64,000 nt of DNA from Lytechinus pictus (lineage: Eukaryota): NCBI RefSeq assembly GCF_037042905.1, contig NC_087251.1:11472001-11536000 (forward strand), read 5' to 3'. Below, piece after piece: positions 1-63,990 of this stretch. Made by a program: the position numbers and the translations under genes. Below the pieces are notes generated by a model. That model was not told the DNA's origin. It did no database searches and saw only the letters and a list, made by a program, of their open reading frames with translations. Within the stretch, counting starts at the first letter, position 1; each line of letters begins with the position of its first letter.

Positions 1-1340
1 AAGGAAAGCAATAGATATAACTCAAATATTAAGTAAGTATCCCAAATTGCATCCCATTGTGTGATTTATTCCTCTGAAAAAAAAATGACAACTACAAAAT
101 ACATTCTTTAATAAACAAAATATTCCCCTTGAGTATAATTAAACTTTGCATGTAATACATCAGAATTTACATTTGCAGGCATTAGGAATCAAAAGTTTGG
201 TTATAGTTAGTTCAATAAAATACAAATCTTAATGAATCCTTTTGGTTCCTGGTAATTAAACACAAATGGAACATCTGAAATTGATTGGAAAAACTTCAGA
301 AAGACTTTTTCTCTCCTTTTTGTTTTACATACATCAATAAAGGTTTAGCTGAAAGAAAACCAAATTTTGAATTTACATATGTGAGAATAGCTCCATAATT
401 TATTTCTACATATTATTCCTCTTTAAGAAGAAATTTTTTGGCAGCAATCATGCATTCTTTATACCAAATGATTGCAACCACATAATAGCTTTAATTGGCT
501 TACTGCATATGTCAGTTAGTTTAATGGAAGCCTCTTTTCTGGACAGTGTTTGTGTCATTTATGACAATTATGACATCTAATCAGTGATTTTCCACTGACA
601 AATTTGCTCTCTGTCAATCAGATGCACAGATTTCATTCGCTTCTACCAAATGTCAGTAACATCTACTGCCAAAAAACATTTTCATTAATTACTCCAATGG
701 TGAATGTAATGACACCATGATATTTTCAATAGACTCCTTTATATGTAGATTTAAAGGGGAAGTCTACCCTGGCATCAGGTTGGCTTAATTGAGAGCAAGA
801 ACATGAGAGAAACATATCAATGAGGGTTTGGTTAGAATGTAAAAATTATTTTATCTTCAAATGTTTGATGTCTTAAATGACCAGTTTCCACATGTTTCAT
901 GAAAAATAAATTCTGTAAATTACCATTTTAAGGGTGTTTTATAATGACTGATTGCATGTATATATTTTCATTCTGATAAAAATGCACAGGTAAAACAATT
1001 CCATTTTCTTGAGTAAAAGGCACTCTTAATGGAATTCACGTTACATGACATATGGGGGAGATGTTGATATGTAAATTGCAAATTTCAAATTAAAAAAATG
1101 TGTAATTCCGTTAATCTGTGATGGATTTTCACCAAACTTAGTTTCTCCATACGTTCTGCTTTCATTAACATCAACTTGCCAACGGGAAGGATTTATATAG
1201 CTTGGTTATTTCCATTTCATTTATATGATATTTAGCAGTTGTTAATATGCAGCACACACAATCTTTTTATGTTACTTCAAATACATGTTAATGATCTTTG
1301 CTTCATTATAATCATCAGAGCAAACAATATAACAAGTTAC

Positions 1341-1376
1341 CTTTCTGGCCAGTTTGATTAACAGACTGAAATGAGT
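1341..1376 (-). CDS. CFAP70: Probable 36-nt CFAP70 microexon (DSFQSVNQTGQK)
   Basis: Long T-rich tract ending tttag, donor AAG|GTAACT, symmetric phase 1-1, open in frame. Confidence 0.5.
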
Positions 1377-2097
1377 CTAAACAAGTAAATGAAATCAAAC
1401 AAAATTAACAGAAATACACACGCAAAACATTAAAAAGAGAGTCATCTATTAAGCAAAATATGAATTAAAAGCAAAATGCCAATGCCCAAGTCTCAAAGAA
1501 AAAACATCGCCACCTGAAAAGGCAAGAGAACATTATACAGCAATGGAAAAGAAAAGATAAAAAATAAAAAAATCTGTGTGAAGTATTTAACTGAAGCGAT
1601 GTTGAAAATGATTTTCTGAATCAGATTTTAAAGATTCCTAATTTTAAACTCAAGAGCACAATGAACTTTTTCAAAATCACTGAGTCAATATGAATATAAT
1701 TAGTGGGATATTTTAAGAGCTTAAACATGCCAACAGAAAAAAAAAATTGACAGGAAGAAAAAAAAATCTGGCAGTTGTGAGTTTTATGTAAAAGATCATC
1801 GAATCATTGTTGATTGCCTAACAACTCCTATACCAATGCATCATTGGTATTCATATGTGTTTGATTGTAATATTCTTTTCATTTTCATTTCCCTGTTAAA
1901 CCGTTATCCAGGTGATGCAATAGTAAAACATATTGCAAAAAGCGAGCCTGTACAATACACAGTTCAAATAATGCAACTGAGATATTTGAAACTCATATAG
2001 GTCAAAGGAAAGTAAACTTCATATACATGTATTTGAAAAATCAATCCACTCAAGTAAGACTGGTATTTTTCTAGCATTTTCAGAGAAGAGGATTTAC

Positions 2098-2235
2098 CTT
2101 TTGATGAAATGGACATCCTCTTCTTGACCTGGGCAGCGGCCGGAGGAGCAGGCTTGACCGCTGGTGATTTGGCCTGACTCTTAGAAAGTTCAGTTGGGGT
2201 AGCAGGGATTTTATTGAATGTTGGGACACTGCTTC
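2098..2235 (-). CDS. CFAP70: CFAP70 coding exon 20 (P/S/K/A-rich linker)
   Basis: cacag/GTAAAT, 138 nt, phase 1-1, GC-rich island in AT-rich intron. Confidence 0.75.
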
Positions 2236-5200
2236 CTGTGTTCACAAACATCAATGTGCAATATAACAATAAACAGCAAGCACAAATATTAACATCACCA
2301 CTACTACAAGTCAACCACTAACACATCATACAATGAAACAAACACTATCACTGGTGCAACCACCACCAACAAAATATGACTACCACCAGCAACTCCACTG
2401 CTACAACTAGAAGAAAAGACAACACTACCATTGTTTCAACCATCAATCACCTAAAATCAACTACAAAATCTTCTACACCAAAATAGCACACAACAAATGG
2501 CACCATCAGTGTTACCATCCAAGAAGAATAAAACCAGTGCTATCATAAACATACCACCATCATCCCCAGTAAATTCACCACTAATAAACACCACAGATGT
2601 CATCAAGTACAATTGTAACAGAACCATCACCATCATCACCGCCACCAGTACCACTTCCACAACAAGCAGCAATAAAAACAAATACCACTATCCAAGCTAC
2701 CTTAAGGCAATGAGGGCATTCAAAGAATAAGTTCCTACCTTTTTCACTGGACATATCTTCTCCATTCTTGGATCCATCACCTTCCCCATTCTCTTGGCCC
2801 ATCACACCTGACTGCTGGTCCTCTCCCACCCCAGGGGGTGCGGCTACCTCCTCCTCTTCTTCCTCTATAACATTGTCTGGTGCAGAAGCGGCAGCAGCAG
2901 CAGCGGCGGCAGCAGCAACAGCCTTGCACTCCTTCTGCTTGGCAGCGGCATGAGCCACATTGAGACGTCGAGCCTCCATCAAGGCATACTCTGCCTGGAT
3001 ATCACAGTCAGTACCATCATAGTAGAGACCTGGGAGGAGTGAGGATACAGAGTGATGTTTCAGAGAGCTACTTATTAATAATACTGGAACATGATCTTGT
3101 GTTTAATCAGATATCATACCCAAATTTCCCGTGTTCCAACAGAGTATGCCTGAATTTTCTATAACCCTCGTCAAATTTTACAAATAAAATCTACAAAAAT
3201 CATATTCCAACTTGAAAAGATTAGAATATTGCTAATTGCTAATCTGACTTAACCCCAAGGAACAGAACAATGCAAATAGGGCTGTAAAACATAACATACT
3301 TGGGTATGTGATTATCACTAACTTATCATGCTAATGCAATACACTGTTTCTCATGATTCATTCAGTATATACCAAACACTATAAAAAACATTTATGCAGA
3401 ACATTGACAAGGGCCCTGTTAAACTAAGCTTGACAATTGATCATACAGTCCATTTGTATAACTGATTGTAAATGATTATCAATACAATCAATATTAAATA
3501 CTAAACCTGCAATGAGTCTCTAAGCTTTGTGTCCCATTGCCCCAAAATGACTTCATATCTCACCTAACATAGTCCAAGCTAAGATGCTTGAGGGATCAAC
3601 ACAGGTAGCAGCTTCAAAGAATGTCTCAGCTGCTTCATTACCTTCCTCCATAGCACACACTACCCCATAGAGCAAAAGACCATACAGATGTTGCTGGTTA
3701 ATAGAGATGGTCTCCTTAAAGCACTCCTCCGCCTAGAAGATTGATCAGAAATTTTACAAAAATAAAACAAAACAAGAGTTTGGGGCAATGTTCCATCAGC
3801 ATTTGTTGTCAGAACTGACAACTTTCCTTGCTTTTGAATTGGCTGAGAAGTACAGGTGTCTGTTGCTATGGTAACTGTAGAATAATATCAACTTATAATA
3901 CAATTGAAGAACAACAGACCACTATTCACTTTACACACCAGCTCAAGATGAAAGCTATTCATATAGTTCCTGTATCCTTACTCAGGTTCAAAAGGCTGTG
4001 GCTTTTGTCAACAATATCTTTCTGATAGTTTCATGAAAGAGGTATAAATTTACGTATCCAGACTATCATAATAGCAAGAGATTCACTGTGAGGATTATTG
4101 AATTCTTTACTCCAGATAAGAATTTTTGGGTGGTGCACTCTTGCAATGAAGTGGCCTCTATGTAAGAAGTTAATGATAAGCATACCTTTGCTATGTCATT
4201 GATGTACAGACAGAAGCAGCCATAGTCAAACCAATGATCAGCATCATTTCTATTCCTTGCAATGCGCTGAAAAATAAAGTGGGGAAGAAAATAAAATTAT
4301 TGAATTTATGAAGAATGAATTGTGCAACCTGCTTTCGTTTCATGCTTAAACATCTTCAGTAGATATGAAGCTATTTGAAAATAATAGGATATTAATCTGA
4401 TTTCCTAACATTATTTTTTGTAATACTTAACTTGAATTCTCCTAAATTTCCTTGTCTTCAGGTTTGAAACAAGTGACCTTTGATCTCCTCTCATGAGTTC
4501 TTGCATTTCACCCCCAAAATGGCCAAGTAATAATACACATCCATTAAGATATCTAATGCCTTTTTTCTTCTTACTATTGTTAAAGGAGCTAACAGAGTAT
4601 CATGTGATTGACAAAACTTATAACCAAATCTATTTTTTTTTTCAAACACTTTCAAATTTATTGCATTCAATTCCCAATACGATATCAAACCGTATACCTC
4701 CTGGTAGTATTTTGATGCCAGTTCGAAGTTCTCATTGACCTCGGCCTCTCTGGCAAAGTGCTTGAGCTGGGCGGAGTCTGTGAGAGGGGCGGGTACAGGG
4801 GTCTCATCTTCCAACGAGAGCACCTTACCAATCCCAACATGCATCTGGTCGACCAAGAAGACGTATAACTCACTAAGGAATGCCTGAATAGCATTTAATA
4901 AAGAAAGAGAGAATGGTTAGATAAACAAATATTTCAGTCACTATAGACTAGATCTGTCACTCTCATGGTTTTAACATGGGTCATTCAAGCAAGAATATCC
5001 AAAGTCAATTTTTTTCTACACAAAATTTATTGCAATTCGTAAATCATATTTTGCAGATTTCAAATAATCCCCCTGTCAATAATTAATATCCACACAATTC
5101 AAAACCACTCAGACAGAAGGCTAGATTCCATCCCAAGATGTTTCTTGTCACATTCATGTCACATATTTGCAGCATACAACTAGAAATTTGACGTGTCTAA

Positions 5201-8200
5201 AGGACACAGATGCCCCCGCTCAATGCGATCAGAAATTCATTCAATATGATTGAACTTAATATTGTGCAGAAACCAATATGCATATATATAAGAACAAATT
5301 TAGACCTTTGAACCAACTCGCATATATAATGAGCTGTGACCTTTGACCTGTGGACTCTGAATTCGAACTTAGCCTGTATTTTGGTGTCATCTACCAACAC
5401 ACCCCAATCTTTTTTAATCTGTTGAACATTTCATAAGTTATCATGCGGAAACCAACTCACATATTTAATGAGCTGTGACCTTTGACCTGTGGACTCTGAA
5501 TTCAAACTTAGCCTGTATTTTGGTGTCATCTACCTACACACCAAAATTTTTTGAGTTATTGCGCGGGAACCAAGAGGGGGGACGAACGGATGGACGGGGG
5601 CAACGCTTAATGCCCCTTCCGGCTTCATCTACGGGGGGCATAAAAGGTGCCCCCCCTCCATACAGCACAGCCACAGTAAAACGACACTTTCTTTGTAAAG
5701 TATCTCAGATTATATATGTAATTCAATTTTTCCCAAAATGCCCTTATAAACTAGTAGTACCTACAAATGATTTATAAAGTAGAAAAAGATCCTGTGCCCC
5801 CCCCCCCTCCCCACAAAAAAAAAATGTTAATAAAGTAGGAATACCAATTTTAGCCTATTAAATGACATCCCTCCATTATTTGATTTCTGGAATATATGAA
5901 ATCAAAAATAATGCAGTCCACAAAAAGTAATAAATACATATATAATTTCAGGTATTTTGATACTCGCCTGTAATTCTTCTTTGTCATCAAATGTGCTTGT
6001 CTTCAGGTACTTTTCTCTTACTATCTTTACAACAGAATGCTGAAATGAAATATAATACCAAATAAAATAAAATATCATGTTAAATTGTAACATACCATGC
6101 ATAATTATAAGCTCATTTTCATCAAACTACATACAAAGTGCACATCATTATTAAAAGAACTGTCCTTATGAAATGCTCCTAAGGAAAAAATAATCCATGA
6201 AGATATGTTGAGCATTTCTTGGCAGTAATGTTATACAATAAATAGTACCTGCGAAATTTCCAGAGTAAATTTATTTGTTTTGTTTTTTTCAATAAATATA
6301 CCAAAAAATGATGCAAAAATCAATGGTAACTACAGTGTTAACAGTACTCAATGGCCAGTCATAATCAACATTTTTGTTTTTGAGTTGTATTCGAAGGGGC
6401 ACTGATAAGCTCACCTTCAGTTGTTCCTTGAAGGCAAAGTATTTTCCAGTAGTATTGAGCTCATAGATTAGTTTTCTTCTTCTTTCCTCCTGTGCTGCAC
6501 CACTGCTCTTACTCAAATCACCAAGATCTCCAAACAATCCCCTACAAAATTAAACAGAATTAAAAATCCGTAATTGGGTTGTAAAATCAATGCGGTAAAC
6601 TATAACCAACAATCAAACAGCAAGAATATCACAATATGATATGAATTGAGACAGTGAATCAGCACATAAAGTACACTTTTATAAATAAATAAAAAATCAC
6701 ATACAAAGAGGCCATTTGTTAAATATTATGTTTTTCTAAAAAAGGAATATAATCATTTTATTGGCTGCAGTAGAAAATGATCCATCAATCATCAATATTT
6801 GCATTCAAAATTTGCAATTGATTTCAATCTAGTTTCCTGCAACATTTTAGTGCACTTTTCACACAAAACATCCTCCAAAATCAACTACGATAATAATAAT
6901 AGATATTTATACAGCACCATCTAACTACATACCATCTATTCCTCGGTACACTGCAGCAAGAGAAATGGGTATTATATTGCAGACATGTAACTCTGGACAA
7001 TAATATAGACCTTTGTGTCTGATAAACTACAAATATATGAGCGCTCAGACACACACATACACACACCTGTGCATCAACCTCTAAACATACCTGAATTCTT
7101 CCAGGACAAGTTTGCTGATGCTTGCTACCTGATGATGGAAGTCTTCTACTGCTTTCTGTGCTCCGTTGGTCCTCCTTGGAAAGAGAGGTCTGGGTGGAAC
7201 AAGCTCAGCAACTCTGTGGGAATGAGGACAATTATACAAAGAAGTGTTTCATAAAGGTGTTCCCATAGTTAGTAATGTCTTTACTAATGACTTGGAATGA
7301 AGTGCCAAAATATGAGCTTAGAGTTCTTTTGGGTTTAAAATAAGAAAATACAATGTAAACAGAAAGTCCTTGGATGGCACCACACATCAGCATCCTGATC
7401 ACAGAATAGGGGAGCTATAGCTGGCCATTTCATTAAACAAGTGGAGCGCCTCTGGCAGTCTCACCTGCATTACGCGATTCAACATAGCAGCAGTGTTGCC
7501 TTTGAAAACAACTACAGAATAATTATTCACAAAAAAACACCATTCATATGATAATAAAATGCTACGTTCATTGACCCTAAATGACATTTGACCTTGATCA
7601 TTTGACCTAAGACTTGTGCAAGATGATCAGTGATACTTAATTACCCCTATGTCCGCATTTCATGAGCTATATCCATAAACTTTCAAATTATGATGGCCAA
7701 AGTTCATTGAACTTAAATGACCTTTGACCTTAGTCATAAGACCCAAAACTCATGAGGGATATTCACCGATACTTGATTACACTTATGTACAAGTTTCATG
7801 AACTAGATCCATGGAAAGTTTTAACATTTCAAAAAAAAATTAACCTCAGTTAAGATTTTGTTTTGATTCCCCCAACATAATCTAAGCTCATTGACTCTGA
7901 CCTTGGTCATGTGACCTGAAACTCGCATGGGATGTTTAGTGATACTTGATTACCATTATGTACAAGTTTCATGAGTTAGATCCATAAACTATCAAAGTTA
8001 TGATGACATTTCAAAAAAGTAACCTTAGGTTAAGATTTCAATGCTGATTACGCCAAAACATGTGTGCATATGATGATGATGCACAGCATTTGTATAGCGC
8101 CATGTATCTGTCAAAGACATTCAAAGGCGCATTTGGGTCGCCCAATCTGGGTCGCCTAGAAGGGCACGCACACAGAACTGTGACCCGCAGGTCTCTCCTC

Positions 8201-17200: not shown

Positions 17201-20200
17201 AGAAATATTGGTTTTCAAGATTTCGTGATTTCACAAAGATAAGTTGACATTAATGTACCATTTCTAGATCTATGATAATAAAGTGACAATTAACCCTGAT
17301 TCAAAAGATTTTTTCATGAAATAATTGTTTGCTGCAACTACTTTCTTTTAACTTTGCCAATATTCTTGTGATTAAATGCCTAATTCCTATTTCAACTGAC
17401 ATGCAAATGTAGTCCCGGTTTATGATATCAACTGTATATGATAATAAGTTCATACTTGCGTCATGGGATAAAACGAATAATAGGAACAGGAGTTTGAGGC
17501 AACTTACGAGATTCAAAGACATTTCAAAATTTCAAAATCTTTAAATGAAACTCACCTAGAACTGGTTTGTAAGCGATTTCATCTATGATGGCCGGGTCAT
17601 CGAAACCGCAGTCAAACTTGGCATTGAAGTTATACTCGGTGGTCAGGTCTGGTCCAGCATCCACCTTGGCGGATTCACCCAAGACGTTAGAACCATACTC
17701 CACACGGACCAGAGAGTTCAGAGTCTCACCTTTGCTTCCTTTCTATTAAATAATTGAAAAGAATGAAGATAGAAATTACTTCTCATTATCCAAATGTTCA
17801 AAGGTTAGGAGGGAGACTTTTTGCATTAACAATGGATTAATCCTCCAAACCTTTGATCAAAACATTTCAGCACCAGTAATGACTCCATTTCTGGTCCTGC
17901 TGTTGCATCACTGTTCTTGGACAGGGGACAGGATATAAATCTACATTCACAACTCTCCATCCAGCGACTATTCCAGAAGGAGTCTGTGTTTAAGGACGTT
18001 CCACAGTTATGTTTGTGCGCATCATGATCTGCACATATGTTACATTCTGCGCGCTGACGTCACAATGGATGAACTGGTTATTAATCAGCTATAGGTAATG
18101 TGAGCTGAATTTTCTCCTTATCTGCACTAACTGCAGATCCTATGTGTTATTTTATGAAGCTAATAAACTGGAATTATTCCACGGACCATTTTTTTATTTC
18201 TCTACAATTTCAAAATAGTTTCTTTGTAGTGCTGCAAAGTATGATGAATATGGCCCCGAGTTTGAATAAATGGAAAAGTGGTTCGGATTTTTTCCTCACA
18301 TAGATACAAAGCTTTTGGCGCGTTTTTGCGGGTGTTTTAAGAAGCAAATTTGCTCTAATAAGAGTGCTGGTAGTTTGAAAACAAGCACATGAACCCATAT
18401 TTTGTAATGTTTGCACCTCTTAGGTATATCTCCCTCTACAACTTTGCAAAGTTTTGTGAAAATGACATGGGTTTTGAATAAAGTGCAGCATTTTTTTTAC
18501 TTCTCAAGTTTGTTATTGAAATTTGACATTTTTGAGGTTGAGTATCTTTCCCACAATTTCTAAGAACTGAGAGTGTTGTTAGACTTATTCCATGGACCAT
18601 TTGAGTATCTTTCCCGCAATTTCTAAGAACTGAGAGTGTTGTTAGACTTAAATGAGCAAACAATTGACAACAATATAAATAGATTATCCATCTGACGGAT
18701 ACAAGTATTAATCATATTGCAAAATTTGATGAAATTTTCATGGATTTTGACTGAGTAATAGAGCTTTAAACTCATTGTTGTGATCTCGTGAGGTCTAAAA
18801 ATGCCAAATTATTTTGGATGCGCAATTCTTAAGAACATCATCCATTTTGGGTTAACTTTGAAGCTCTATAGCAAACAAGTGGAACGCCTCTGGCAGTCTC
18901 GCCTGCATTACGCGATTTAATATAGCAGCAGTGCTAACTTTGAAAACTACTATAAAATAATCATTCACAAAAACACCATTCATATAATGACATCATACCA
19001 CATTCATTGACCATAGATGACATTTGAACGGTGACTTAAGACTTGTCAACTACACCCATGTCCACATTTCATTCACTCTATCCATAAACTTTCAAAGTTA
19101 TGATGGCAATTCAACCCCAACATGCAAGCCTTGAAATAAGCGGGCGCTGAGCGCAAATTCGCGCTCATAAAGCCATCAATTGCGCCCATCAAGCCCCAAA
19201 ATCATCAAAATTTTGACGACCGGGCGCAAATATTTTCCAGGTAATTGCGCCCGCCGTGAGTGAGCAGTGAAGCCATATCATATGTAATTTAAATATCTGA
19301 AAAGCCCAAATCAAGTAACTTTCAATTTACGATTAAACTCAGTTTAAAATTGCCAAGTGCGTCTTTTTTTCTGTACCGTAAAAAGTGAGCTACGTCCGTC
19401 TTTTTTTTTTCTGTAATACATGTGCGCGCGTGCTTCCGGTAGCGGTTTTTCCATACTTCACCATGTGCAATTTCTAATGCACACATTTCCAGTTGGGATA
19501 TCACAAGTCTGCGATATAGTAATTCGAATTGCACAGGAGATAAATCCCTATTCACAGCGCATACGATGTGCGAGTCTTTTATCCTCACATTCGCCGACTT
19601 TGCTTGTCAAAACGGAGCCTTAATAATCCAAAATCACTTAGCTTATAGTGAATTGTAGCTTTTTAATTTCTTTCTTGGAGAGGGGTAAATATCAGACAAT
19701 AAATCATCAAACAAGGCTCCATCTAAAAACAAAAAATAGGAAGACGCCGTACACTTGAGTGTGGTGTTCGGCTAGCCAGTTTGAGCTCATGTTCTCTGCC
19801 AGAGCTCTGGGTGAGAATTCTATCAGTAATGGCCTAAGTGACGGTGATTTTCCGATTCAGATAGAGTTTAGATTTCATGTTAATTTTTGAAAACTGTCAC
19901 AAAACTTTATGATTTCTTCATTGTGATGAATATTTAAGTTATTAATGAATACATTTTCACCGTATTTAGACTCTCCCAGAATGAAAGGCATTTTCTGTGG
20001 AGATCTGCGTTTTCAAATAACTTGTGAAAAAGTTAATTTTATACATGGACCTACAATACATGTACATAGCCTGTGGCTATGTGCTGGAATTTGAATAGAC
20101 TGAGTTAGATATTGATTTAATTTCTTCATTTCTGTAACATAATTTATATGCAATCCAAGTGCACCTCACAGTCACAATCACACACAAACACTCACCCACA

Positions 20201-21377
20201 CCTGTGATTCTAACCATGAAAAAAAACCTTGAATTTTTTTTTTTTCCTAAATTTATTTTTATTTGATCTGAATTCTCTCTTTCTCCATCTCTCTCTCTTT
20301 TTTTATATTTTTATTTTATTCATTTATTTAGATTTTTTTTTTTTTTGGGGGGTTCATTGATCGTGGTTCATTAAAGATGAAAAATAAATAAGCCCATATG
20401 TGTGTGGTTGTAAAGGGGATGTGGAGTGAGGGTGTCAAAACACACTTAAACATTTAAATCTGATTTCTTAAATGTTTGAATAAGCCTAATATTTAGCATG
20501 CTATTCATGTACTAATTAAAAAATTGTAGGAGCTGCGCTTACTATAAACAAATTTGCGGTGTGGTTCACCGTTATACATATTTTTTTTTAATTGCCCCCG
20601 GTTCCTGTAAAAAGCCAGTGAGCCGGGGGCAATTTAAAAAAAAATTGCCCCCGGCTCACAGGTGCTTATTTCAAGGCTTGCCAACATGGCCTAAGTTTAT
20701 TGACCTTAACTGACCTTTGACCTTGGTTTTGTGACCTGAAACTCACAGGGGATGTTCAGTGATACTTGATTACTTTTATATCCCAAGTTTTATGAAATAG
20801 ATCTGTGATTGATTTTTCATCAATAATCCAGTGATGTTAAATTCTTTTGCTTATTTTAAAACCTAATCAGAAGCTGGATGATCCTCCCCTTCAAGAAATG
20901 TGACTTTTTCATGCAAATGTAAAGGATTTAGTCTTTACCAGGGACACCCCCATAATGCTCAGAGCCCTGTACTGACTGCACAGAAACGTAGTTAGCGCTA
21001 ACAATGCGCTAACAGAGGACCTGTTACAACTGGTAATGTGGCAGCGATGCCTAGTGTTATAACAATGCATTACTTACAAATTGAAATAAATGTTTTGACT
21101 TAATTCACAATCCGAAAGATGTGACTGGGCTTACTGTTAGCACTCAGTTAGGCTAACAACGTTTCTGTGCGGCCCGCACAGGAAAATAGGGAAAAAAAGC
21201 CCAAGAAAATCCCCATTCACTGCAAAATTAAGGATTATTCAATGATGAAGATTTAGGCAGTAGGAAGACAAACTGTAAGAATGTAAGACAAGTACTCACC
21301 AAATTTCTTGATCTCAAGATTGTGATATTCACTGGCTCCGGAGGGCGCTGCTTCTGTTGGTCCTCTTCAGTCGCCAT
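2098..21377 (-). CDS. CFAP70: Cilia- and flagella-associated protein 70 (TTC18), multi-exon, 3' part outside window
   Basis: 20 exons assembled by hand with consistent phases. Peptides such as [59 protein letters not shown] and [15 protein letters not shown] resemble vertebrate CFAP70 as recalled. Confidence 0.93.
2290..2700. repeat. Low-complexity (CAC/CAA/TAC) tract in a CFAP70 intron
   Basis: Degenerate ACC/ACA/ACT triplets (GU-rich on the transcribed strand). Confidence 0.7.
2739..3029 (-). CDS. CFAP70: CFAP70 coding exon 19 ([17 protein letters not shown]..., poly-Ala, acidic tract)
   Basis: AG/GTAGGA, 291 nt, phase 1-1. Confidence 0.85.
3564..3732 (-). CDS. CFAP70: CFAP70 coding exon 18, TPR ([15 protein letters not shown]...AWTML)
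   Basis: AG/GTGAGA, 169 nt, phase 0-1. Confidence 0.9.
4186..4266 (-). CDS. CFAP70: CFAP70 coding exon 17, TPR ([20 protein letters not shown]...)
   Basis: AG/GTATGC, 81 nt; TPR-like W-x-D-Y-G. Confidence 0.9.
4698..4883 (-). CDS. CFAP70: CFAP70 coding exon 16 ([15 protein letters not shown]...ASKYYQE)
   Basis: AG/GTATAC, 186 nt, phase 0-0. Confidence 0.92.
5176..5645 (+). mobile_element. HINE/pearl-like non-autonomous Helentron-type element
   Basis: Subterminal IR ATGCCCCC/GGGGGCAT, two ~140-bp core repeats with TGACCTTTGACC, (GGAC)n-like microsatellite, 3' hairpin followed by AAAA. Confidence 0.65.
5968..6039 (-). CDS. CFAP70: CFAP70 coding exon 15 ([24 protein letters not shown]), GC donor
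   Basis: AG acceptor; donor CAG|GCGAGT; joins in frame to AFLSELY. Confidence 0.88.
6415..6541 (-). CDS. CFAP70: CFAP70 coding exon 14 (...[19 protein letters not shown])
   Basis: AG/GTGAGC, 127 nt, phase 2-0. Confidence 0.92.
7091..7213 (-). CDS. CFAP70: CFAP70 coding exon 13 ([26 protein letters not shown]...)
   Basis: AG/GTATGT, 123 nt, phase 2-2. Confidence 0.9.
7436..8058 (+). mobile_element. HINE-like element with ~170-bp TGACCTT core repeats, copy 1
   Basis: Begins AACAAGTGGAGCGCCTCTGGCAGTCTC; homologous to 18874-20800. Confidence 0.7.
8070..8502 (-). mobile_element. tRNA-derived SINE with Deu/Nin-like central domain
   Basis: A/B boxes at 8430-8500, core GGGTTCTTAACGTGCA...TTTAACGTCCTATCTGAGGA, (CAT)n tail. 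Confidence 0.75.
8520..8701 (-). CDS. CFAP70: CFAP70 coding exon 12 (QPSQMMKLG...[12 protein letters not shown])
   Basis: AG/GTAAAT, 182 nt, phase 0-2. Confidence 0.88.
9246..9398 (-). CDS. CFAP70: CFAP70 coding exon 11 ([14 protein letters not shown]...DAATKK)
   Basis: AG/GTATGA, 153 nt, phase 0-0, K/G/E-rich linker. Confidence 0.85.
10780..10841 (-). CDS. CFAP70: CFAP70 coding exon 10 ([21 protein letters not shown])
   Basis: AG/GTGAGT, 62 nt, phase 1-0. Confidence 0.9.
11681..11750 (-). CDS. CFAP70: CFAP70 coding exon 9 ([23 protein letters not shown])
   Basis: AG/GTAAGA, 70 nt, phase 0-1. Confidence 0.9.
12411..12498 (-). CDS. CFAP70: CFAP70 coding exon 8 ([17 protein letters not shown]...KGK)
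   Basis: AG/GTAAGT, 88 nt, phase 2-0. Confidence 0.88.
13145..13239 (-). CDS. CFAP70: CFAP70 coding exon 7 ([27 protein letters not shown])
   Basis: AG/GTCAGA, 95 nt, phase 0-2. Confidence 0.88.
13827..13881 (-). CDS. CFAP70: CFAP70 coding exon 6 ([18 protein letters not shown])
   Basis: AG/GTAAGA, 55 nt, phase 2-0. Confidence 0.85.
14461..14588 (-). CDS. CFAP70: CFAP70 coding exon 5 ([13 protein letters not shown]...AIYIPD)
   Basis: AG/GTAGGT, 128 nt, phase 0-2. Confidence 0.88.
15228..15624. mobile_element. Degenerate Kolobok-like MITE (related older copy ~750-1200)
   Basis: AGGGGAAGTCCACCCTGA...TCAGGGTGAACTTCCCCT-TTAA. Confidence 0.6.
15811..15987 (-). CDS. CFAP70: CFAP70 coding exon 4 ([14 protein letters not shown]...PLTEE)
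   Basis: AG/GTAAGT, 177 nt, phase 0-0. Confidence 0.9.
16756..16937 (-). CDS. CFAP70: CFAP70 coding exon 3 ([17 protein letters not shown]...DAPR)
   Basis: AG/GTAAGT, 182 nt; within ORF 16666..16938. Confidence 0.92.
17556..17742 (-). CDS. CFAP70: CFAP70 coding exon 2 ([17 protein letters not shown]...EIAYKPVL)
   Basis: AG/GTGAGT, 187 nt, phase 0-1. Confidence 0.9.
17994..18873 (-). mobile_element. Kolobok-like MITE family 1, truncated copy
   Basis: TTAA-GGACGTTCCACAGTTA end; reverse-complement homologue of 55872-56805; internal ~50-bp duplication at 18540-18650. Confidence 0.8.
18874..20800 (+). mobile_element. HINE-like element copy 2, interrupted by hAT insertion
   Basis: AACAAGTGGAACGCCTCTGGCAGTCTC start; resumes at 20681. 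Confidence 0.7.
19125..20680. mobile_element. Non-autonomous hAT-like transposon, 1556 bp
   Basis: Perfect 17-bp TIR CAAGCCTTGAAATAAGC; perfect 8-bp TSD CCAACATG; subterminal TTGCGCCC/TTGCCCCCGG repeats. Confidence 0.9.
20965..21182. mobile_element. Short palindromic MITE
   Basis: CCTGTACTGACTGCACAGAAACG...CGTTTCTGTGCGGCCCGCACAGG. Confidence 0.65.
21300..21377 (-). CDS. CFAP70: CFAP70 first coding exon ([26 protein letters not shown])
   Basis: ATG at 21377, donor GTGAGT 21299-21294. Acceptor ttcag just upstream (exon begins 21401) implies further 5'UTR exon(s). Confidence 0.85.
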
Positions 21378-24046
21378 GATGAAGACGCTTCTTTTTTAAC
21401 ACTGAATTTTGAAAACAAAATGTAGGCCTATACTTTCTTAGAAAAATCATAAGTCTGTTTGGGGGAGTTTCAACATCAAACAATGTTCTCCTCATACACA
21501 GATGTATGTAACACAGCTGAGTATACAAACGCGCCAGCCAATCTCGTTTGTACGCTCAGGCTATAGCTCAGCTGTATTACAAACATTACGGTGAACGATC
21601 AAAGAACCTGATCCTCAATGTATTCCTATAGATCTAGATCGAGATCTGATAAATCAATATGCAAATAAATGAAACGATCCTGATCTTTAGGAATACGTAA
21701 GAATAATCATGATCTTGAGCTGCGATTCCTGCGAATGCCTAATTTGCATTAGTGATGTTTTGAAATCGGCAGTGAATCAATACGTGTGATGAAATTGTTA
21801 CTGGCTTTATATCACCAAATTTGAGACTGATAGAAGGACAAGGTCGTGAGACGTGTAATTAGAAATGTAATTAGTTTTTGATAGTTTGTAAGGTCATGTT
21901 GCTGCATGAGTTTTATGATTTCTCCACAAAAAGTGACACTTTTGTCACACGGAGCGTCAGAACAAGTTACCCGACTGGATGGTTCGGGTAGGTGTAGCGG
22001 TGGTGAAGTGTAGTGGAGCCTACACCAACCATCACTTGAACTTAGCTTAGCCTTATGTACATAGAGTAAAGTGCCCAAATATCGGACACTTAATTAAGTA
22101 TAACTGGACTAACTAAAACAAAAATACAATCATTGAATCAAATAAAAATCATGTGTATTTCTGTGATAAAAATGTTGAATATTAATGTCATAAAAAAACA
22201 GAATTGAAAAAAATTATGATTAACGGAAATTTACTTACTACCAGAAGCTGTTTTTTGCCAATTATCAGACGCGTATAAAGTTGTGCGCCAGGATCAATTT
22301 TGGCGATCTAAATCGCGCTCTTTGTTAGACCCCAAAATAATTGCTTAATTGTTGAGAAAATAACTTATTTTAGCTGTGCAAATGCCGCTTTTAATTATTG
22401 TATTCAATAATTTTGATTTGATTTTGATTCAGAAATTGGTAAATAATTAGTATTTACCTACCAAACGGACCTCTTTCGGCTCTAAACATCAGACGTCTTA
22501 GCTCAGCTACGCACAACTTTGTTCTGAAATTGAGCGTGAGCGGTTCAACAGTTCGCATTTCCAATTCAATCGGCCGATATGTCCGATGTTTGGATGAGTG
22601 CCATATTTGGAAGGGCATCAAATTTCCTGCCATGGGGAAACCCCGCAGCAACCACTGCAGATTTTTATTGCGATCGATCGGAAATGTGCGATCTCGGCGG
22701 AAATCACTTCCTCCTTACGAGTCTTCTTTTGGTCATCGATCTTTTGGAGTCCAAATTGATAATTGATTATCTCCGTGAAATCTTCACTAAAGATCAAGAA
22801 AATATACATATTTTTTAAAAGAATCTTCAAGGAGAAGTCACGGAAGGATTCTAAATGATTCGGTGTCATAGCAGAATCACTCTAGGCGACACCCCAATAC
22901 TTACCCGTGCTAATAAACTGGGACTCCACTCACGCGCATTTGGGCCGCCCTAGCTTAGAACTAAGCTTTGTTTTACTAAAAAATAAATCTTGTAATGATT
23001 CAATAAATGTTACTTAATAAATTAGTACTGTTAAATCGGTACTCACCGGTTCTTTTCTTGAATTTTCTGGCAATTTCCCACGCTTCTGGCTTCAATTCTG
23101 CGGCTGTTCCTGTCGCGGTAGACAGCTACATATGCAACTTTATTTATAAATAGAGCGCCCCTTACGATAGTTGTTAAGAACGCGGCCAAATTGTTAGGTT
23201 TTTTGCACTGTGTCCAAGGCGTTTTTATTTTGTTTGATTTTTATTTTTTAATAAATATTTTGTTAAATAGCGATTTTTACGTCAAATATTAAATTCATAT
23301 CACAAAATATTTTTAATTGTAGAAATATATATAATATCATGCAATTATTTATTCTATATAGGCCTATATTTTATAATAAAATTTATAATTGTTGCGGTCT
23401 TTAAAAAAGGATAGTCAATCGATCAGGTGATGACTACTCGTATCACGTGATCTGAAAATCAGCTTCGTACCGCTTTGATCGCACTCGACGGGACCGGACT
23501 GACTGCCAAGAAAAGATCGAAAAAGGACTCAAATGTAAGTTTCCCTTTATTTTATAACATTTAAAATATGAGTAGGATTATAGTTAATGGGTAATTTTTT
23601 AATAAATGCTAAACAAATGAGGACAAAGCTTGCATTTTTCGAGTAATAATCACTAATATCATAAAAATACTTGGGTGCAGGACTTCTAACCTGTTTTTAA
23701 CGCATTGTCGCCTATGAGGTCCATACATGTTAATGTTTGGACCTCATTGGTACTAGGAGTGAGCAGAATGTGAAATACCAAATTATGTGTGATATTTTAT
23801 GTGGCCAAAAGCACTCTGGGGCTACACCGCTATTCCAACGCGTGTTGGAAAAGTCGACGCCAGACGGGTACGTTTTGGCCTTGAATTTCCAGCAAATTAA
23901 TCAAAATTACGACCTAAATTTAGGTCTATGTTATCAATTATATACTAATTTCATAATTATAATGTAAAACGGGTACTCACGGGTTCTTTTCTTTCCAAAT
24001 TTTGTGTTTTCATCGCCTCTTCTGGCCAACTCTTGCGATGGATTTT

Positions 24047-24060
24047 GTCGCCATAGGATC
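24047..24060 (-). promoter_or_regulatory. X-box-like element
   Basis: GATCCTATGGCGAC on the minus strand vs consensus GTTNCYATGGCAAC, ~70 nt upstream of a GTGAGT donor. Confidence 0.4.
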
Positions 24061-24281
24061 CTGTACGTGCAAATCCAGGGCGAGTTGTCACATGACGCTC
24101 GCGAGTTTCTAGGGGTAATGGCCTTTAATCAAGGCGTTCTTTTTGCTATAATTTTATAATGACGCTTAAATATCGAAATCAATGTAGACGAGTCTGTGCA
24201 GGGGCATAACAGGGGTATATAAGAGGGGGCATAGTACATGTCGCATGTGGAAGATAAAAGTTACGTAATGTAAGTCCCGAG

Positions 24282-24591
24282 CACTAGCGTACCTAGGGGG
24301 GGGCAGTCTGCCCCCCCCCCCCCCCCGATGAGTCACAAACCCATGCAAATTACATATCTCTGCCCCCCGGCCCCCCTGACGAGCTTGAAAACCTATTTTG
24401 CCCCCCCCCCCCGACGAGCTTGAATACCTATTTTGCCCCCCCTGGCGAGCTTGAAGACTTTTTTTTTGCTTGTCAAATTTTTTCTGGTACGATTGAAGAC
24501 CTTTTTCATTGAAGAGCCTTTTTTTCCTTGTCAAATTTTTTGGCGGCCGATTTTGCCCCCCTGTGGAAAATCCTAGGTACGCCATGCACTG
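24282..24591. mobile_element. hAT-like MITE with three ~40-bp internal repeats
   Basis: GCGTACCTAGG...CCTAGGTACGC; (GACGAGCTTGAA..CCTATTTTGCCCC) x3. Confidence 0.65.
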
Positions 24592-24919
24592 CCCGCGCTA
24601 CATGTATGTTGGTAGCCCTGGGACCTCTGGATATTAACTAATCCAATTTAATTACAGATGGCAGATTTTTTTATTATCTGAGTAGCCCCCCCCCCCCCCC
24701 CCGGATTATTTGTTCTCACATTACTTTCCTTTTTAAATTTCCTTTCGTTCTTTCTTTCATTTTTCTTTCTTTCTTCCTTCCGTTGCTCCTATGTTTTTTT
24801 TTCAGGTGAAATCCACTCGGGGGATGGCCAGCCATGCCCCCATCTGTTTATGCCTCTGAGATGTAGGCTATACTCATGATCTTAATCTTCGATTTTCCAA
24901 AGTAGGGGGGTGCAATTTC

Positions 24920-25830
24920 TCAAGTAAAATTTGACAACCCCCCCAAAAAGGTTATCACAGAAAAATTGTCATTTTGTCTCGCGTAAGATTTGACAAGTAA
25001 AAAGAAAAGATGGTTACTAAAAATAAAAGACTCATTTTGTCCGTGTAATATTTGGCAAGCCTCCCCCCCCCCCCCAGTTTAACATATCGGAGGCGCGATG
25101 GCTCAGTCGGTAGAGCAGGGGTTTCGGATTCCGGTGACCCGGGTTCGATTCCCAAGTGGTGCGCTAGTGCCCTTAAGGCTTATCCTCATTACCAGGTCCC
25201 TCGGAGAGGACCTTAAGCCGTTGGTCCCCTGGTTGCTTGCTCACAGGCATTCGTGCTTTTTTAGCAGTCAGGTAAAAAATCTCGATATAACATAACATTA
25301 AAAAAAAGTGAAGGTCATTTTGTCCTGCGTGAAATTTTAAAAGTAATAAAAAGATGGTCACTAAAATTGAAGTTCATTTTGTTTGTGAAATATTTGGCAA
25401 GCCCCCCTCCCAAAAAAAGGTTTTAACTAAAAATGATTGAAGGCCATTTTGTTCCTCTTAAAATTTGTCAAGTATAAAAAAAAAAATCACTAAAAAATGA
25501 AGGTCATTTGTCCCACGTAAAATTTGACAAGCCCCCCCCCCTAAAAAAAAATGAAAGGTAGCTGATAATGATTGAAGATCATTTTTTCTTGCATAACATT
25601 TTACAAAAAAAAGTGTGTCACTATTTGGCGAGCCCCCTACCCTCCAAAAAAAAGGTTTAATTAATAATGATCGAAGGTCATTTTGTCTCTCGTAAAATTT
25701 GACAAATAAAAAAAAAGTTGTCACTAAAAAAAGAAGGTCATCTTGTCGCGCGTTATATTTGGCAAGCCCCCACCCCCCTAAAAAAGTTTGTCATTAAATA
25801 TAGAAAGTCATATGTTCAAAGTAAAATAAA
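24920..25830. repeat. Degenerate ~60-bp tandem array (GAAGGTCATTTTGTC..CGTAAAATTTGACAAG), probably TE-internal
   Basis: Roughly ten diverged units, interrupted by a SINE. Confidence 0.7.
25089..25285 (+). mobile_element. tRNA-derived SINE
   Basis: TGGCTCAGTCGGTAGAGC A box and GGTTCGATTCC B box followed by a non-tRNA body. Confidence 0.75.
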
Positions 25831-26645
25831 TTTGGGAAGCAAAAAAGAAAAGGACAAAAAAGAGCAAAGAATATGAACAAAATATCCCCATTACAAATAT
25901 TGCTGTGATTCTCATAAGGAGGTGGGGGGGGGGGGGGACTTAACTTTGTACGAACGACATTTTTTTTTTACATCCAAAATATTGACTATGAATCTCAAAA
26001 GGTGGAACGGGCCAGAAATGCTCAACCCCCCCCCCCCCCCCGATCTGCCATTGATTCCAATCGATAATGACTTTTCCCTGCAATACTGATGCTTGAAATC
26101 AAGATACTGAAGATTGATATATTGTAATATAAATTATGAACGTCTGACAAAAAGATAACCAACCGATCACCTGACCGATCAGCTGACCAGTACGTGAATC
26201 ACATCGTAGTTGATCAGTCCCCACAGCGTTTGGAACGCTCACCAAGAATTCAAGAAAAAAGACTGAAAATGTAAGTTTAACCTCAATCCATTAAATTTCA
26301 AATGTCGTAGAAGTTTCCTTATCATGTTTAAAACTAATTAATACCTAAATTGTTACCATCCACTATGTATTAAGGCGTACATTTGCCAAAGTTCTTGGGT
26401 GCAAATAGAAACGGCAATGTCTAACCGGTTTTATCACTGATGTCGCCTATGAGGTCCATACATGTAATGTTTGGACCTCATTGGTACTAGGAGTGGCCAA
26501 AAGCCCAGTATATTTTGGATGTGTCGTGTGTATCGCGTGCATATGACTGATATTCCTTCGCACGCAAGATGATATGAACCCATGGGTGGCCTATGTCAGG
26601 ATTTTAAAACATTATTTAATGAAATTAAAGACTAGTCATCATCAT

Positions 26646-34498: not shown

Positions 34499-35052
34499 CA
34501 TCTATAGGCCTACAGCAAATATCTCTATAAAAAAAAAGGAACTTGGAAAAAAAAGAATCGATTCCGTTTGTTACGGGACGGCAGCCGGGGTTATACATTT
34601 TTGTGGTAAATTAGACCTTCATTCAGGGATCGGATGAAAATTAATGTAAACAAAATTACATGTAATCTTCAGAAGACGAGCAAAATAATTGAAAACCGAA
34701 GATCACTTAAAAATTGCACAAAGTCGCTAGCCATGACATTATTCCCATCATGGACCTACTCGCATAACTTGGCCGAAGTGTAGCAATCAAAATTTAGGGA
34801 AAACCCCCTCTTGAGTAGGTTAAGCGGGCCCATAAGCGGACCGGAACAATACAAGGAAGTACTAAAGGGATGCATGCCCTGGTTTTTATCTCGACTAGGC
34901 TTATGAGACATATTCTTATTAAAGAATGTCATTTCATTGAAATTGTCTCTATTTTTCACTCAATAAATTGATAAAACGTATGTCCTGAAATTTGTGACCC
35001 TGTACTATGAAGGATGGGGCTCATTTTCCAAATAAGGAAATTCCCGTCCCTA

Positions 35053-35060
35053 TGACGTCA
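35053..35060. promoter_or_regulatory. Palindromic CRE site upstream of PP1
   Basis: TGACGTCA ~310 bp upstream of ATG in CpG-rich region. Confidence 0.35.
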
Positions 35061-35367
35061 TGGTCCTGAAAGTGTATTGCAGGGCAAGTTTGATTTTGTA
35101 GAGAATTATTCTGAAAATAATTGGAATTAGATTATATGAAACTATTGTTTAGGTACATAAAATCTTTTTCTGTTGGAATCTATATTTTTCCTTAATTTTA
35201 GACTCTCGGCTTTTCTCACAGAACAGCTCGAATCTCCGAGCCGAAACAGAATTCCTCGCTCATCACGTCCGATCATTATAACGTACCGGTACACGGCCTA
35301 CTAGAACGGTTGGCCTGCCTGGGTTAAAAATCGCCGATCAATAGTTTCTCACCGGCACTTTCTAATC

Positions 35368-57552
<22,185 letters not shown>

Positions 57553-62100: not shown

Positions 62101-62768
62101 TTCATTTTATGTGTATGTCATGTGTCCATAGTTTTCTATACTGTGCTATCATGTATCACCATGAAGAGACATGCACAGAGAGAGAGAGAGAGAGAGAAGG
62201 GGGGGGGGGGCAAATTAAATGTCCAATAAGAGAATTGCAAAGAACAAAAGGAAATGGCGGAGGGGACAAAGAGATGAACGGAAATTACGGAAGAGAGAAG
62301 GATGCAAATATAAAATCCTGCTCATTGCAAATTATGCCTAAAACAAAGCACCCCTTTCCCCTTAATATTTACAATAAGTCCCCATTTAATCCCACCCCTT
62401 GCTTTGGGTGCACCTTTTCTAAATTAAAAAATCTACCCTCTCAAATCATTATACACTTGCCAATTATGGCAGATATGGTGATCTATATTTGGAGACTGCC
62501 CTGCGGCAATAATCTTTATTCAATGTTTAGAGGTGCCTCTTAACCTGACAAGTGACTCCCACTATGTTTTTATTTTCTCAAATATTTGAAGATGTTATTT
62601 TTCTTTAATACTCGAATCATTCTTTTTGAACGAGAGACCATTGTTACTCGTGACATTCATTTGATTAAAAAATGAAATAAATCGCTTGCCTCAATTTAAT
62701 TTTCAATCAATCAGAAAGAACTCATGGTGTCAACATTTTCAAATGAAATTCATAAAAACGTTCTTTTG

Positions 62769-62850
62769 CGACGAGGGTGGGATTCGAACCCACGCGTGCA
62801 GAGCACAATGGATTAGCAAACCATCGCCATAACCACTCGGCCACCTCGTC
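62769..62850 (-). tRNA. tRNA-Ser(GCT), variant (possibly impaired)
   Basis: 82 nt GACGAGGTGGCCGAGTGG...GGTTCGAATCCCACCCTCGTCG with long variable arm, anticodon GCT and a T5 Pol III terminator ~11 nt downstream; T-T mismatch at the loop-closing pair of the anticodon stem. Confidence 0.85.
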
Positions 62851-63919: not shown

Positions 63920-63990
63920 CGTTGAGGGTGGGATTCGAATCCACGCGTGCAAATAGCAATTCATCGCCATAACCACTCGGCCACCTCGTC
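63920..63990 (-). pseudogene. tRNA-Ser(GCT) pseudogene
   Basis: Same 5' half and T-arm as 62769-62850, but ~11 nt of anticodon 3' strand/variable arm deleted, with acceptor-stem and B-box substitutions. Confidence 0.85.

What the first reader, a model, noticed from the sequence alone, without database searches (positions are those of the whole stretch)
23030..26505. Tandemly duplicated putative bidirectional promoter unit between CFAP70 and PP1
Seen: two collinear diverged copies. Each has (i) a minus-strand segment ending in a GTGAGT donor (23046-41; 23980-75), (ii) a plus-strand E-box/GATC-rich segment ending in AAAT|GTAAGT (23535; 26271), and (iii) a near-identical hairpin block. Copy B is split by ~2 kb of TE insertions. 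Similarity peaks at the two oppositely oriented donors and the hairpin, which looks like selection rather than neutral decay. Inference: each unit fires short non-coding first exons in both directions, leftwards into CFAP70 (acceptor at 21402-03) and rightwards into PP1 or a lncRNA.
Basis: partly seen in the sequence, partly recalled or inferred. Interest (0 to 1): 0.7.

Follow-up and report, generated by a model that had tools for sequence, protein, structure and literature searches.

The report
Duplicated promoter carrying candidate microRNA hairpin
In a sea urchin, a promoter region beside a cilia gene was copied in tandem long ago, and both copies have kept an identical RNA hairpin shaped like a microRNA precursor, which points to an undescribed small-RNA gene rather than to extra start sites for the neighbouring phosphatase gene.

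Summary
The duplication is real and larger than reported: A = 22870-23805, B = 23806-26505, with about 1.9 kb of repeats inside B. The copies are 65-71% identical overall. The hairpin block has 55 of 55 aligned bases identical, plus one loop indel.

Stranded RNA reads cover the units on both strands. The link to PP1 is not supported: one RNA assembly starts PP1 at 35233, downstream of both proposed acceptors, and runs unspliced through both copy-B donors. The predicted junctions were not directly testable (233 of 248 joints hidden by poly-G noise). Copy A as CFAP70's first exon remains inferred.

The hairpin has pri-miRNA geometry in both copies: about 35-bp stem, identity starting at the predicted Drosha cut, apical UGU, and a 3' end on an AG preceded by a branch-point-like motif. 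It matches no miRNA list checked. A related species carries a third, chimeric copy type at high depth.

Best reading (0.45): a duplicated divergent promoter whose plus-strand non-coding RNA hosts an undescribed miRNA-type precursor. No small-RNA data were available.

The parts
21300..21401 (-). CFAP70 first coding exon (ATG at 21377), preceded by a strong acceptor at 21402-21403
   Evidence: 26/26 aa identical to P0001; acceptor context; minus-strand RNA in this bin
22640..22864 (+). Third plus-strand transcribed segment outside the duplication. Run X5 has a GTAAGT donor at its end; the window lacks 4 nt there
   Evidence: plus RNA rises from 0.7/0.4 to 7.4/6.8 between bins and is 6 and 10 reads at 22824; X5 loose end at 22864; no homology to the A/B exons; left boundary inferred
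22870..23805 (.). Duplication unit A
23047..23125 (-). Candidate non-coding first exon of CFAP70 (copy A), donor 23046-23041, TATA-like box at 23148
   Evidence: donor; TATA; use is inferred only from X1 bin depths; junction not seen
23415..23534 (+). Candidate plus-strand first exon A (E-boxes at 23424, 23444), donor 23535
   Evidence: plus RNA 5.7/10.4 in bin 23108-23584; start inferred
23685..23691 (+). Branch-point-like TCTAACC motif, kept in A, B and the related species' third copy type
23691..23766 (+). Hairpin A with pri-miRNA-like long stem; identical block 23706-23761; predicted precursor 23706-23756 ending on AG
   Evidence: z -4.26, 0/200 shuffles
23801..23880 (-). Second long hairpin, only in this copy
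   Evidence: z -3.07, 1/200; paralog 22860-22960 does not fold (z 0.27)
23806..26505 (.). Duplication unit B
23981..24070 (-). Paralog of the minus exon (copy B), donor 23980-23975; A's TATA segment is deleted here
   Evidence: X1 contig 23810-24303 unbroken across the donor
24165..26075 (.). Repeat insertions splitting unit B, including a tRNA-like head at 25093-25164
26160..26270 (+). Candidate plus-strand first exon B (TATAAA at 26128), donor 26271
   Evidence: X1 contig 26165-26465, 0 differences, depth 32, unspliced
26427..26505 (+). Hairpin B; identical block 26441-26495; predicted precursor 26441-26490 ending on AG
   Evidence: z -3.93, 0/200
35233..35419 (+). PP1 catalytic subunit first exon, with its own start near 35233 (ATG 35368)
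   Evidence: X1 contig depth 247.6; bin arithmetic; PP1 identity from the exon at 47570-47800, E 1e-48

Best explanation
An ancestral ~0.93-kb unit was duplicated head-to-tail before the window's species and its close relative split. It held a divergent promoter, a minus-strand non-coding exon leading towards CFAP70, and a plus-strand exon with donor followed by a hairpin. Shown: the duplication, RNA on both strands, a largely unspliced plus-strand RNA over about 22.7-26.6 kb that does not supply PP1, and strong selective retention of the hairpin. Inferred: copy A supplies CFAP70's first exon; copy B's donors are now little used; the plus-strand RNA is a pri-miRNA host; and both hairpins release the same ~50-nt precursor (23706-23756; 26441-26490). 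Release would be by Microprocessor, possibly competing with a 3' splice site at the same AG, giving an undescribed, probably lineage-restricted miRNA kept in two doses.
For: 55/55 aligned bases are identical against 65-71% background, p about 1e-7 to 6e-10, and the only change is in the loop. Both copies extend to a 76-79-nt unbranched hairpin (about 35 bp) using the same 5' strand but different 3' partners. Identity begins at 23706, and A has UG 14/13 nt upstream of it. UGU lies at +23 to +25 in both copies. These fit the ~35-bp stem, 13-nt lower stem, basal UG and apical UGU in PMC7174388 (passages). The predicted precursor starts with U and leaves a 2-nt AG overhang. Donor-to-block spacing is 171 and 170 nt despite indels. 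The plus strand folds better than the minus strand. Plus RNA is present at 24107 and 26532. A related species carries the block with different 5' flank letters but the same TCTAACC (loose end at 26429).
Against: There are no small-RNA reads, so processing is not shown. There is no CNNC 16-18 nt downstream, B lacks the basal UG, and the loop is only 7-8 nt in this register. Hairpins of this strength are not rare here: 29 of 15,980 80-nt windows passed my filter, about 19 loci by eye, so the case rests on conservation. Minus-strand RNA is also present near the hairpins, which the model does not explain. The high depth inferred for the block in X5 (roughly 1,000 by bin arithmetic against 18-66 for PP1) is unusual for a pri-miRNA. 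A sea cucumber transcript shares 15 nt of the block's 3' end but has a different middle; if homologous, that fits a non-miRNA element better.
Confidence: 0.45

Rival explanations
1. The block is a structured 3' splice site. TCTAACC is the branch point, the hairpin hides the first AG (23718; 26453) and brings the TAG at 23756/26490 close, defining a 220-222-nt first intron of the plus RNA. Any small RNA would be a 5'-tailed mirtron or a by-product. Splicing would also create an ATG across the junction.
For: The first AG is fully paired (probability 1.0) while the TAG and the branch A are mostly unpaired. The motif is kept in three copy types. The precursor end coincides with the AG, as in 5'-tailed mirtrons (PMC4556696 passages) and splice-site-overlapping miRNAs (PMC3794580 abstract). 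The exon-side frame is open for 69 codons in A and 26 in B.
Against: The X1 contig runs unspliced through donor B. The pyrimidine tract is weak, 10/17 against 13/17 at the PP1-side AGs. A stem that only hides an AG need not keep every base. The A frame has no homologue.
Confidence: 0.2
2. The block is DNA-level: either a short gene-conversion tract or protein-binding palindrome, or the conserved end of a mobile element (hairpin followed by CTAG, as in Helitron ends, recalled). The both-strand RNA is then promoter noise.
For: Run X5 shows a B-left/A-right chimeric exon (joint 26175 to 23439, depth 230) beside a plain A ortholog (depth 6.6), so the array recombines. Depth over these parts is high in X5. 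Other notes on this genome describe transposon-end hairpins (unchecked).
Against: Conserved pieces alternate with diverged spacers, unlike one conversion tract. Shared sequence continues 5 nt past CTAG. There is no third copy in 64 kb. X1 depth over the units is 19-38 against 320-7,632 at repeats, and a 301-nt contig has 0 differences.
Confidence: 0.2
3. The block is another kind of structured non-coding RNA element, older than sea urchins, with fixed ends and a variable upper stem.
For: Sea cucumber contig isogroup06252 holds an exact 15-nt match to the block's 3' end, with ATGTCG 35 nt upstream (41-42 nt here). Chance is about 0.14 for any such 15-mer and 0.004 for the hexamer nearby.
Against: It is one accidental hit. 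The upper stem is invariant between A and B. No shared H/ACA, C/D or Sm boxes and no Rfam family.
Confidence: 0.1
4. One reading: both units act as alternative distal promoters of PP1, splicing to 35202 or 35222.
For: Both AGs have good pyrimidine tracts (13/17); the donors are retained; plus RNA is present.
Against: The PP1 contig starts at 35233 and fills its bin; depth is zero at 34556-35032 in 4 of 4 runs; donor B is unspliced in X1. Caveats: intron signal is low even in the CFAP70 intron, and a minor or tissue-specific isoform is not excluded.
Confidence: 0.05

Closest known systems
Canonical pri-miRNA hairpins (Microprocessor substrates; PMC7174388 passages, PMC6943042 passages)
   Same: About 35-bp stem, basal UG in copy A, apical UGU about 22 nt from the predicted cut, arms conserved with the change confined to the loop, located in a non-coding transcript
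   Different: No reads tested; no CNNC; short loop; no match to the sea urchin, sea star or hemichordate mature lists of PMC3247247 (supplements), the 20 novel miRNAs of PMC6039759, or Rfam 15
5'-tailed mirtrons (PMC4556696 passages) and splice-site-overlapping miRNAs such as miR-34b (PMC3794580 abstract)
   Same: Hairpin 3' end falls on a YAG with a 2-nt overhang; short candidate intron; 5' U on both predicted arms
   Different: The branch-point-like motif lies upstream of the hairpin, not inside it as in miR-34b; splicing is not shown, and copy B is unspliced in X1
Zebrafish miR-430 cluster (10.1101/2021.08.09.455629, abstract only)
   Same: A tandem repeat of a unit containing its own promoter plus miRNA; TATA-type promoter
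   Different: Two copies 30-35% diverged here, not over 300; the unit also carries a divergent exon facing a protein-coding gene; stage of expression unknown
Divergent (bidirectional) mRNA/lncRNA promoters (general knowledge, recalled)
   Same: Opposite first exons about 0.3 kb apart in copy A; RNA on both strands
   Different: The whole pair is duplicated; the two halves of copy B are pushed 2 kb apart; start sites not mapped

Membership tests
Canonical miRNA gene | Unbranched stem of about 35 bp | tested here: met
   76-nt and 79-nt hairpins, z -4.26 and -3.93; criterion from PMC7174388
Canonical miRNA gene | Basal UG at -14/-13 and apical UGU about 22 nt from the cut | tested here: inconclusive
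   UG in A only; UGU in both; read from window sequence; the cut site is itself predicted
Canonical miRNA gene | CNNC 16-18 nt downstream (optional motif) | tested here: not met
Canonical miRNA gene | Phased mature and star reads with 2-nt overhangs | not testable with these tools
   no small-RNA run listed
Known miRNA families | Mature or seed identity with a described family | tested here: not met
   Rfam; PMC3247247 lists; PMC6039759 table. MirGeneDB Spu-NOVEL entries carry no sequence in the file seen, so they were not compared
5'-tailed mirtron / splice-site-overlapping miRNA | Hairpin 3' end at a splice acceptor AG | tested here: met
   (sequence and fold only)
5'-tailed mirtron / splice-site-overlapping miRNA | The host intron is spliced at that AG | tested here: inconclusive
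   B unspliced in X1; A not visible; 233 of 248 joints hidden
Box H/ACA snoRNA | H box and terminal ACA after the hairpins, in both copies | tested here: not met
   A has ANANNA at 23775 and ACA at 23824; B has no ANANNA between 26406 and 26540 and no ACA after the hairpin
Box C/D snoRNA | RUGAUGA and CUGA boxes | tested here: not met
   no C box in either copy, no D box in A
Spliced-leader RNA | Sm site downstream of the donor | tested here: not met
   no match in 23640-23830 or 26365-26560; nearer intron read by eye
Bidirectional promoter | RNA on both strands over the unit | tested here: met
   bins 22631-24061, 2 of 2 raw runs
Bidirectional promoter | Mapped divergent start sites and spliced first exons | not testable with these tools
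   no 5'-end data; joints table saturated
Dispersed high-copy repeat | Many genomic copies | tested here: inconclusive
   no genome held; none in window; low depth in X1 but high in X5

The most novel reading that the evidence does not exclude
The unit is a self-contained promoter-plus-miRNA gene that shares its promoter back-to-back with a motile-cilia gene. It is still expanding and recombining in the genus (a third, chimeric copy type in the related species) and is very highly expressed in some stage or tissue. Its precursor end is set where Microprocessor and the spliceosome compete. It would be a sea urchin counterpart of the miR-430-type repeated promoter-miRNA design, or a rare splice-defined miRNA held invariant through 30-35% divergence of its flanks.
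Probability: 0.12. Interest if true: 0.72.

Novelty: new member of a known kind. Interest (0 to 1): 0.42.

Why it matters
Duplicated promoters and divergent lncRNAs are ordinary. What stands out is a 55-base block frozen between copies that differ by a third elsewhere. If it is a miRNA, it is missing from the sea urchin lists checked, in a genus used as a developmental model. It would be co-regulated with a motile-cilia gene, and the coordinates make it directly testable by small-RNA sequencing or knockdown. The work also removes the proposed cilia-promoter-to-PP1 link as a main route.

Tried and rejected
No whole genome is held, so genome copy number was not counted. Isoform N-termini of the CFAP70 cluster could not be listed.

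No RNA holder was listed among indexed runs; this is no evidence either way.

The single read lay used a 14.3-kb stretch at 90% likeness. Poly-G/C noise filled the joint and loose-end tables (15 of 248 and 24 of 1,632 rows shown), so the four predicted junctions were not tested directly. Bin 25970-26446 of X14/X16 was not used because it holds a poly-C run.

No metagenome match for two hairpin patterns. No look-alikes among earlier scan notes.

Full-text searches for four arm motifs gave 1 unrelated paper; four 3'-end motifs gave 12 papers unrelated by title; only the listings were seen. Supplements with no match: PMC11076791, PMC11701709, PMC5638244 (12 of 27 files searched and the control term also absent). 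The novel-miRNA read stacks of PMC4526669 gave only let-7 variants. Supplements of PMC3048847 and PMC6039759 could not be read and may bear on 'undescribed'.

Rejected ideas:
- The left half is an inverted copy of the right half: z 1.4-3.5 in 4 whole-half comparisons, -0.6 to 2.2 in 6 of exons or hairpins.
- A degenerate third unit at 22450-22870: z under 1.
- The units derive from CFAP70 exon 2: E 0.7.
- A peptide encoded through the hairpin: the loop indel shifts the frame with no other change.
- A full RFX X-box: none found.
- miR-2012 kinship: only 6 nt shared, on the minus strand.
Full report
Setting. The minus-strand gene is CFAP70. An exon matches a Lytechinus pictus protein at 100%, and that protein maps to 18 exon blocks of the window, starting at 21377. 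The plus-strand gene is a PP1 catalytic subunit; its first coding exon is 35368-35419. No genome is held.

The observation. BLAST finds the hairpin pair at 91% over 78 columns (E 1e-22) and the minus-donor pair at E 8e-6; the plus-donor pair alone is E 0.19. In segment tests, 7 of 10 pairs beat all 500 shuffles; the plus upstream region, the plus intron and the region after the hairpin did not. Homology runs further left than reported, 22872-23244 against 23806-24158, z 20.4. So A is about 22870-23805 and B follows directly, split by about 1.9 kb of repeats. Background identity is 226/346 and 284/401. The longest identical runs are 31 and 24 nt, joined by a 1-nt loop indel; at background identity 55 unchanged bases have probability 1e-7 to 6e-10. 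Two of the five other runs of 9 nt or more contain a donor core, against 2-3% per run by chance.

RNA evidence, strands. I laid 4 of 16 listed runs once. The raw runs X14 and X16 are stranded: the PP1 bin reads 0 against 7.4, and the CFAP70 exon bin 3.5 against 0.2 and 0.9 against 0.1. Over the three bins 22631-24061, plus RNA is 3.9-10.4 and minus RNA 3.6-8.6, against 0-0.7 in the bin to the left. At single positions plus/minus reads are 6/3 and 10/1 at 22824, 2/0 and 2/4 at 24107, and 10/5 and 8/4 at 26532. Both strands are transcribed, and plus RNA already exists left of unit A. Bins may be somewhat inflated by partial matches at 90% likeness. Minus RNA in X16 exceeds what the CFAP70 exon would explain; this is unexplained.

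RNA evidence, splicing. The joint table shows 15 of 248 rows, all poly-G/C or repeat artefacts, so no predicted junction was seen or excluded. Contigs (16 of 3,211 pieces shown) are more useful. X1 behaves as RNA: its PP1 contig lies on 35233-35419, ending exactly at the exon's last base, with 297 letters elsewhere. That contig accounts for 46,301 of 47,174 letter-depth units in its bin, so the bulk of PP1 RNA in X1 starts near 35233, after both proposed acceptors. If the 297 letters lay on the left instead, no AG precedes 35233. Bin 34556-35032 is empty in 4 of 4 runs, which is weaker evidence because intron signal is low generally. X1 contigs 23810-24303 (depth 26.7) and 26165-26465 (32.2, no differences) cross both B donors without a break; contigs drop rare forms, so this means little use, not none. 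With 24555-25130 and 25254-25937 (21-25) they outline a mostly unspliced RNA falling to 6.8 by 26817. X1 bins over copy A (28 and 38) leave room for a spliced minus exon A, while the bin over minus exon B is mostly explained by one contig (6,728 of 8,872). That A is CFAP70's first exon is inference.

The related species. Run X5 holds a direct A ortholog (23380-23529, 8 differences, depth 6.6). It also holds a contig that is B-like to 26175 and A-like from 23439 (depth 230), and a contig matching from 26429 whose 5' flank differs but keeps TCTAACC. At 22818-22849 depth is 474-1,007 in 2-3 contigs, and the loose end at 22864 supplies a GTAAGT donor that the window lacks by 4 nt. Bin arithmetic suggests roughly 1,000-fold depth on the hairpin block against 18-66 on PP1; this is rough. 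X5's library type is not on record, so high expression, open chromatin and local amplification all remain open.

The hairpin. Both copies fold on the plus strand at z -4.8 and -4.4 for the core. They extend to 76- and 79-nt unbranched stems whose basal helices use the same 5' strand with different 3' partners. PMC7174388 (passages) gives a ~35-bp stem, a cut 13 nt from the base, UG at -14/-13, UGU about 22 nt above the cut, and CNNC at 16-18 nt. The identical block starts at 23706; A has UG at -14/-13 (B has GG); UGU is at +23 to +25 in both; CNNC is absent. The predicted 50-51-nt precursor ends in a 2-nt AG overhang. That AG is also a possible acceptor: a branch-point-like motif lies upstream, the intervening AG is fully paired, and donor-to-block spacing is 171 and 170 nt. 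This resembles 5'-tailed mirtrons (PMC4556696, passages) and splice-site-overlapping miRNAs (PMC3794580, abstract), but B is unspliced in X1. Folding alone is not special: 29 of 15,980 windows passed a similar filter. snoRNA and Sm boxes are not shared, and Rfam gives nothing at the gathering threshold; the only sub-threshold hit on the block is E 3.3.

Known or not. Neither arm matches the mature lists in two supplements of PMC3247247 (read whole) or the 20 novel miRNAs of PMC6039759 (table). Searches found no relevant paper. MirGeneDB's sea urchin 'NOVEL' entries could not be compared, so 'undescribed' holds only for these sources. One accidental lead cuts across the miRNA reading: a sea cucumber contig in a supplement of PMC4526669 (passages) has 15 nt identical to the block's 3' end and ATGTCG 35 nt upstream, with a different middle. 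Chance is about 0.14 for the 15-mer and 0.004 for the hexamer. It was not folded or aligned, so its homology is open.

Verdict. The feature is real. It works like a duplicated divergent promoter with a miRNA-type precursor in its non-coding arm (0.45). A structured 3' splice site (0.2), a DNA-level or mobile-element explanation (0.2), another structured RNA (0.1) and distal PP1 promoters (0.05) are the rivals. Membership of the miRNA class is not shown, because the defining read pattern could not be tested. The likeness to miR-430 rests on the abstract of 10.1101/2021.08.09.455629. Helitron end features and general properties of bidirectional promoters are recalled, not from a call.

Noticed in passing
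window 22640-22864: Plus-strand RNA starts inside the presumed CFAP70 first intron, left of the duplication. The related species has a GTAAGT donor here and 474-1,007 depth in X5; the window lacks 4 nt of that donor.
   Followed up: partly
window 23801-23880: Second long hairpin, favoured on the minus strand, 100-180 nt downstream of minus donor B; not conserved in the paralogous stretch.
   Followed up: partly
window 23747-23762; PMC4526669 supplement file 4, isogroup06252: 15-nt exact match to a sea cucumber transcript, upstream of a branch-point and acceptor-like stretch and a membrane-anchored ORF read by eye.
   Followed up: partly
window 23534/23757 and 26270/26491: Splicing to the AG after the hairpin would create an ATG; exon-side frames are 69 and 26 codons and share S..GQK across an in-frame 42-nt indel; no homologue for A.
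   Followed up: partly
window 23670-23679 and 26394-26403: 10-nt identical motif upstream of both hairpins at different spacing; on the minus strand it matches the metal-response consensus TGCRCNC (recalled).
   Followed up: no
window 26465: The X1 contig ends at the hairpin loop, as expected if the loop indel is polymorphic within copy B.
   Followed up: no
window 36880-37480: CpG-rich stretch (observed/expected 1.92 at 37000-37399) inside PP1 intron 1; possible alternative promoter.
   Followed up: no
window 35053-35060: Perfect TGACGTCA palindrome about 180 nt upstream of the PP1 start; no TATA found.
   Followed up: no
window 62768-62850 and 63920-63990 (minus): tRNA-Ser(GCT) gene and a shortened copy 1.15 kb away with an internal deletion.
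   Followed up: no
window 25093-25164: ARAGORN tRNA-Arg call is probably a SINE head: Rfam 18.5 bits and contig depth in the thousands.
   Followed up: partly
window 38057-38669 and 45799-46390; 17990-18878 and 55987-56809: Two pairs of dispersed repeats: a 615-nt palindromic element at 88.6% and an 894-nt inverted pair at 78%.
   Followed up: no
   Followed up: no
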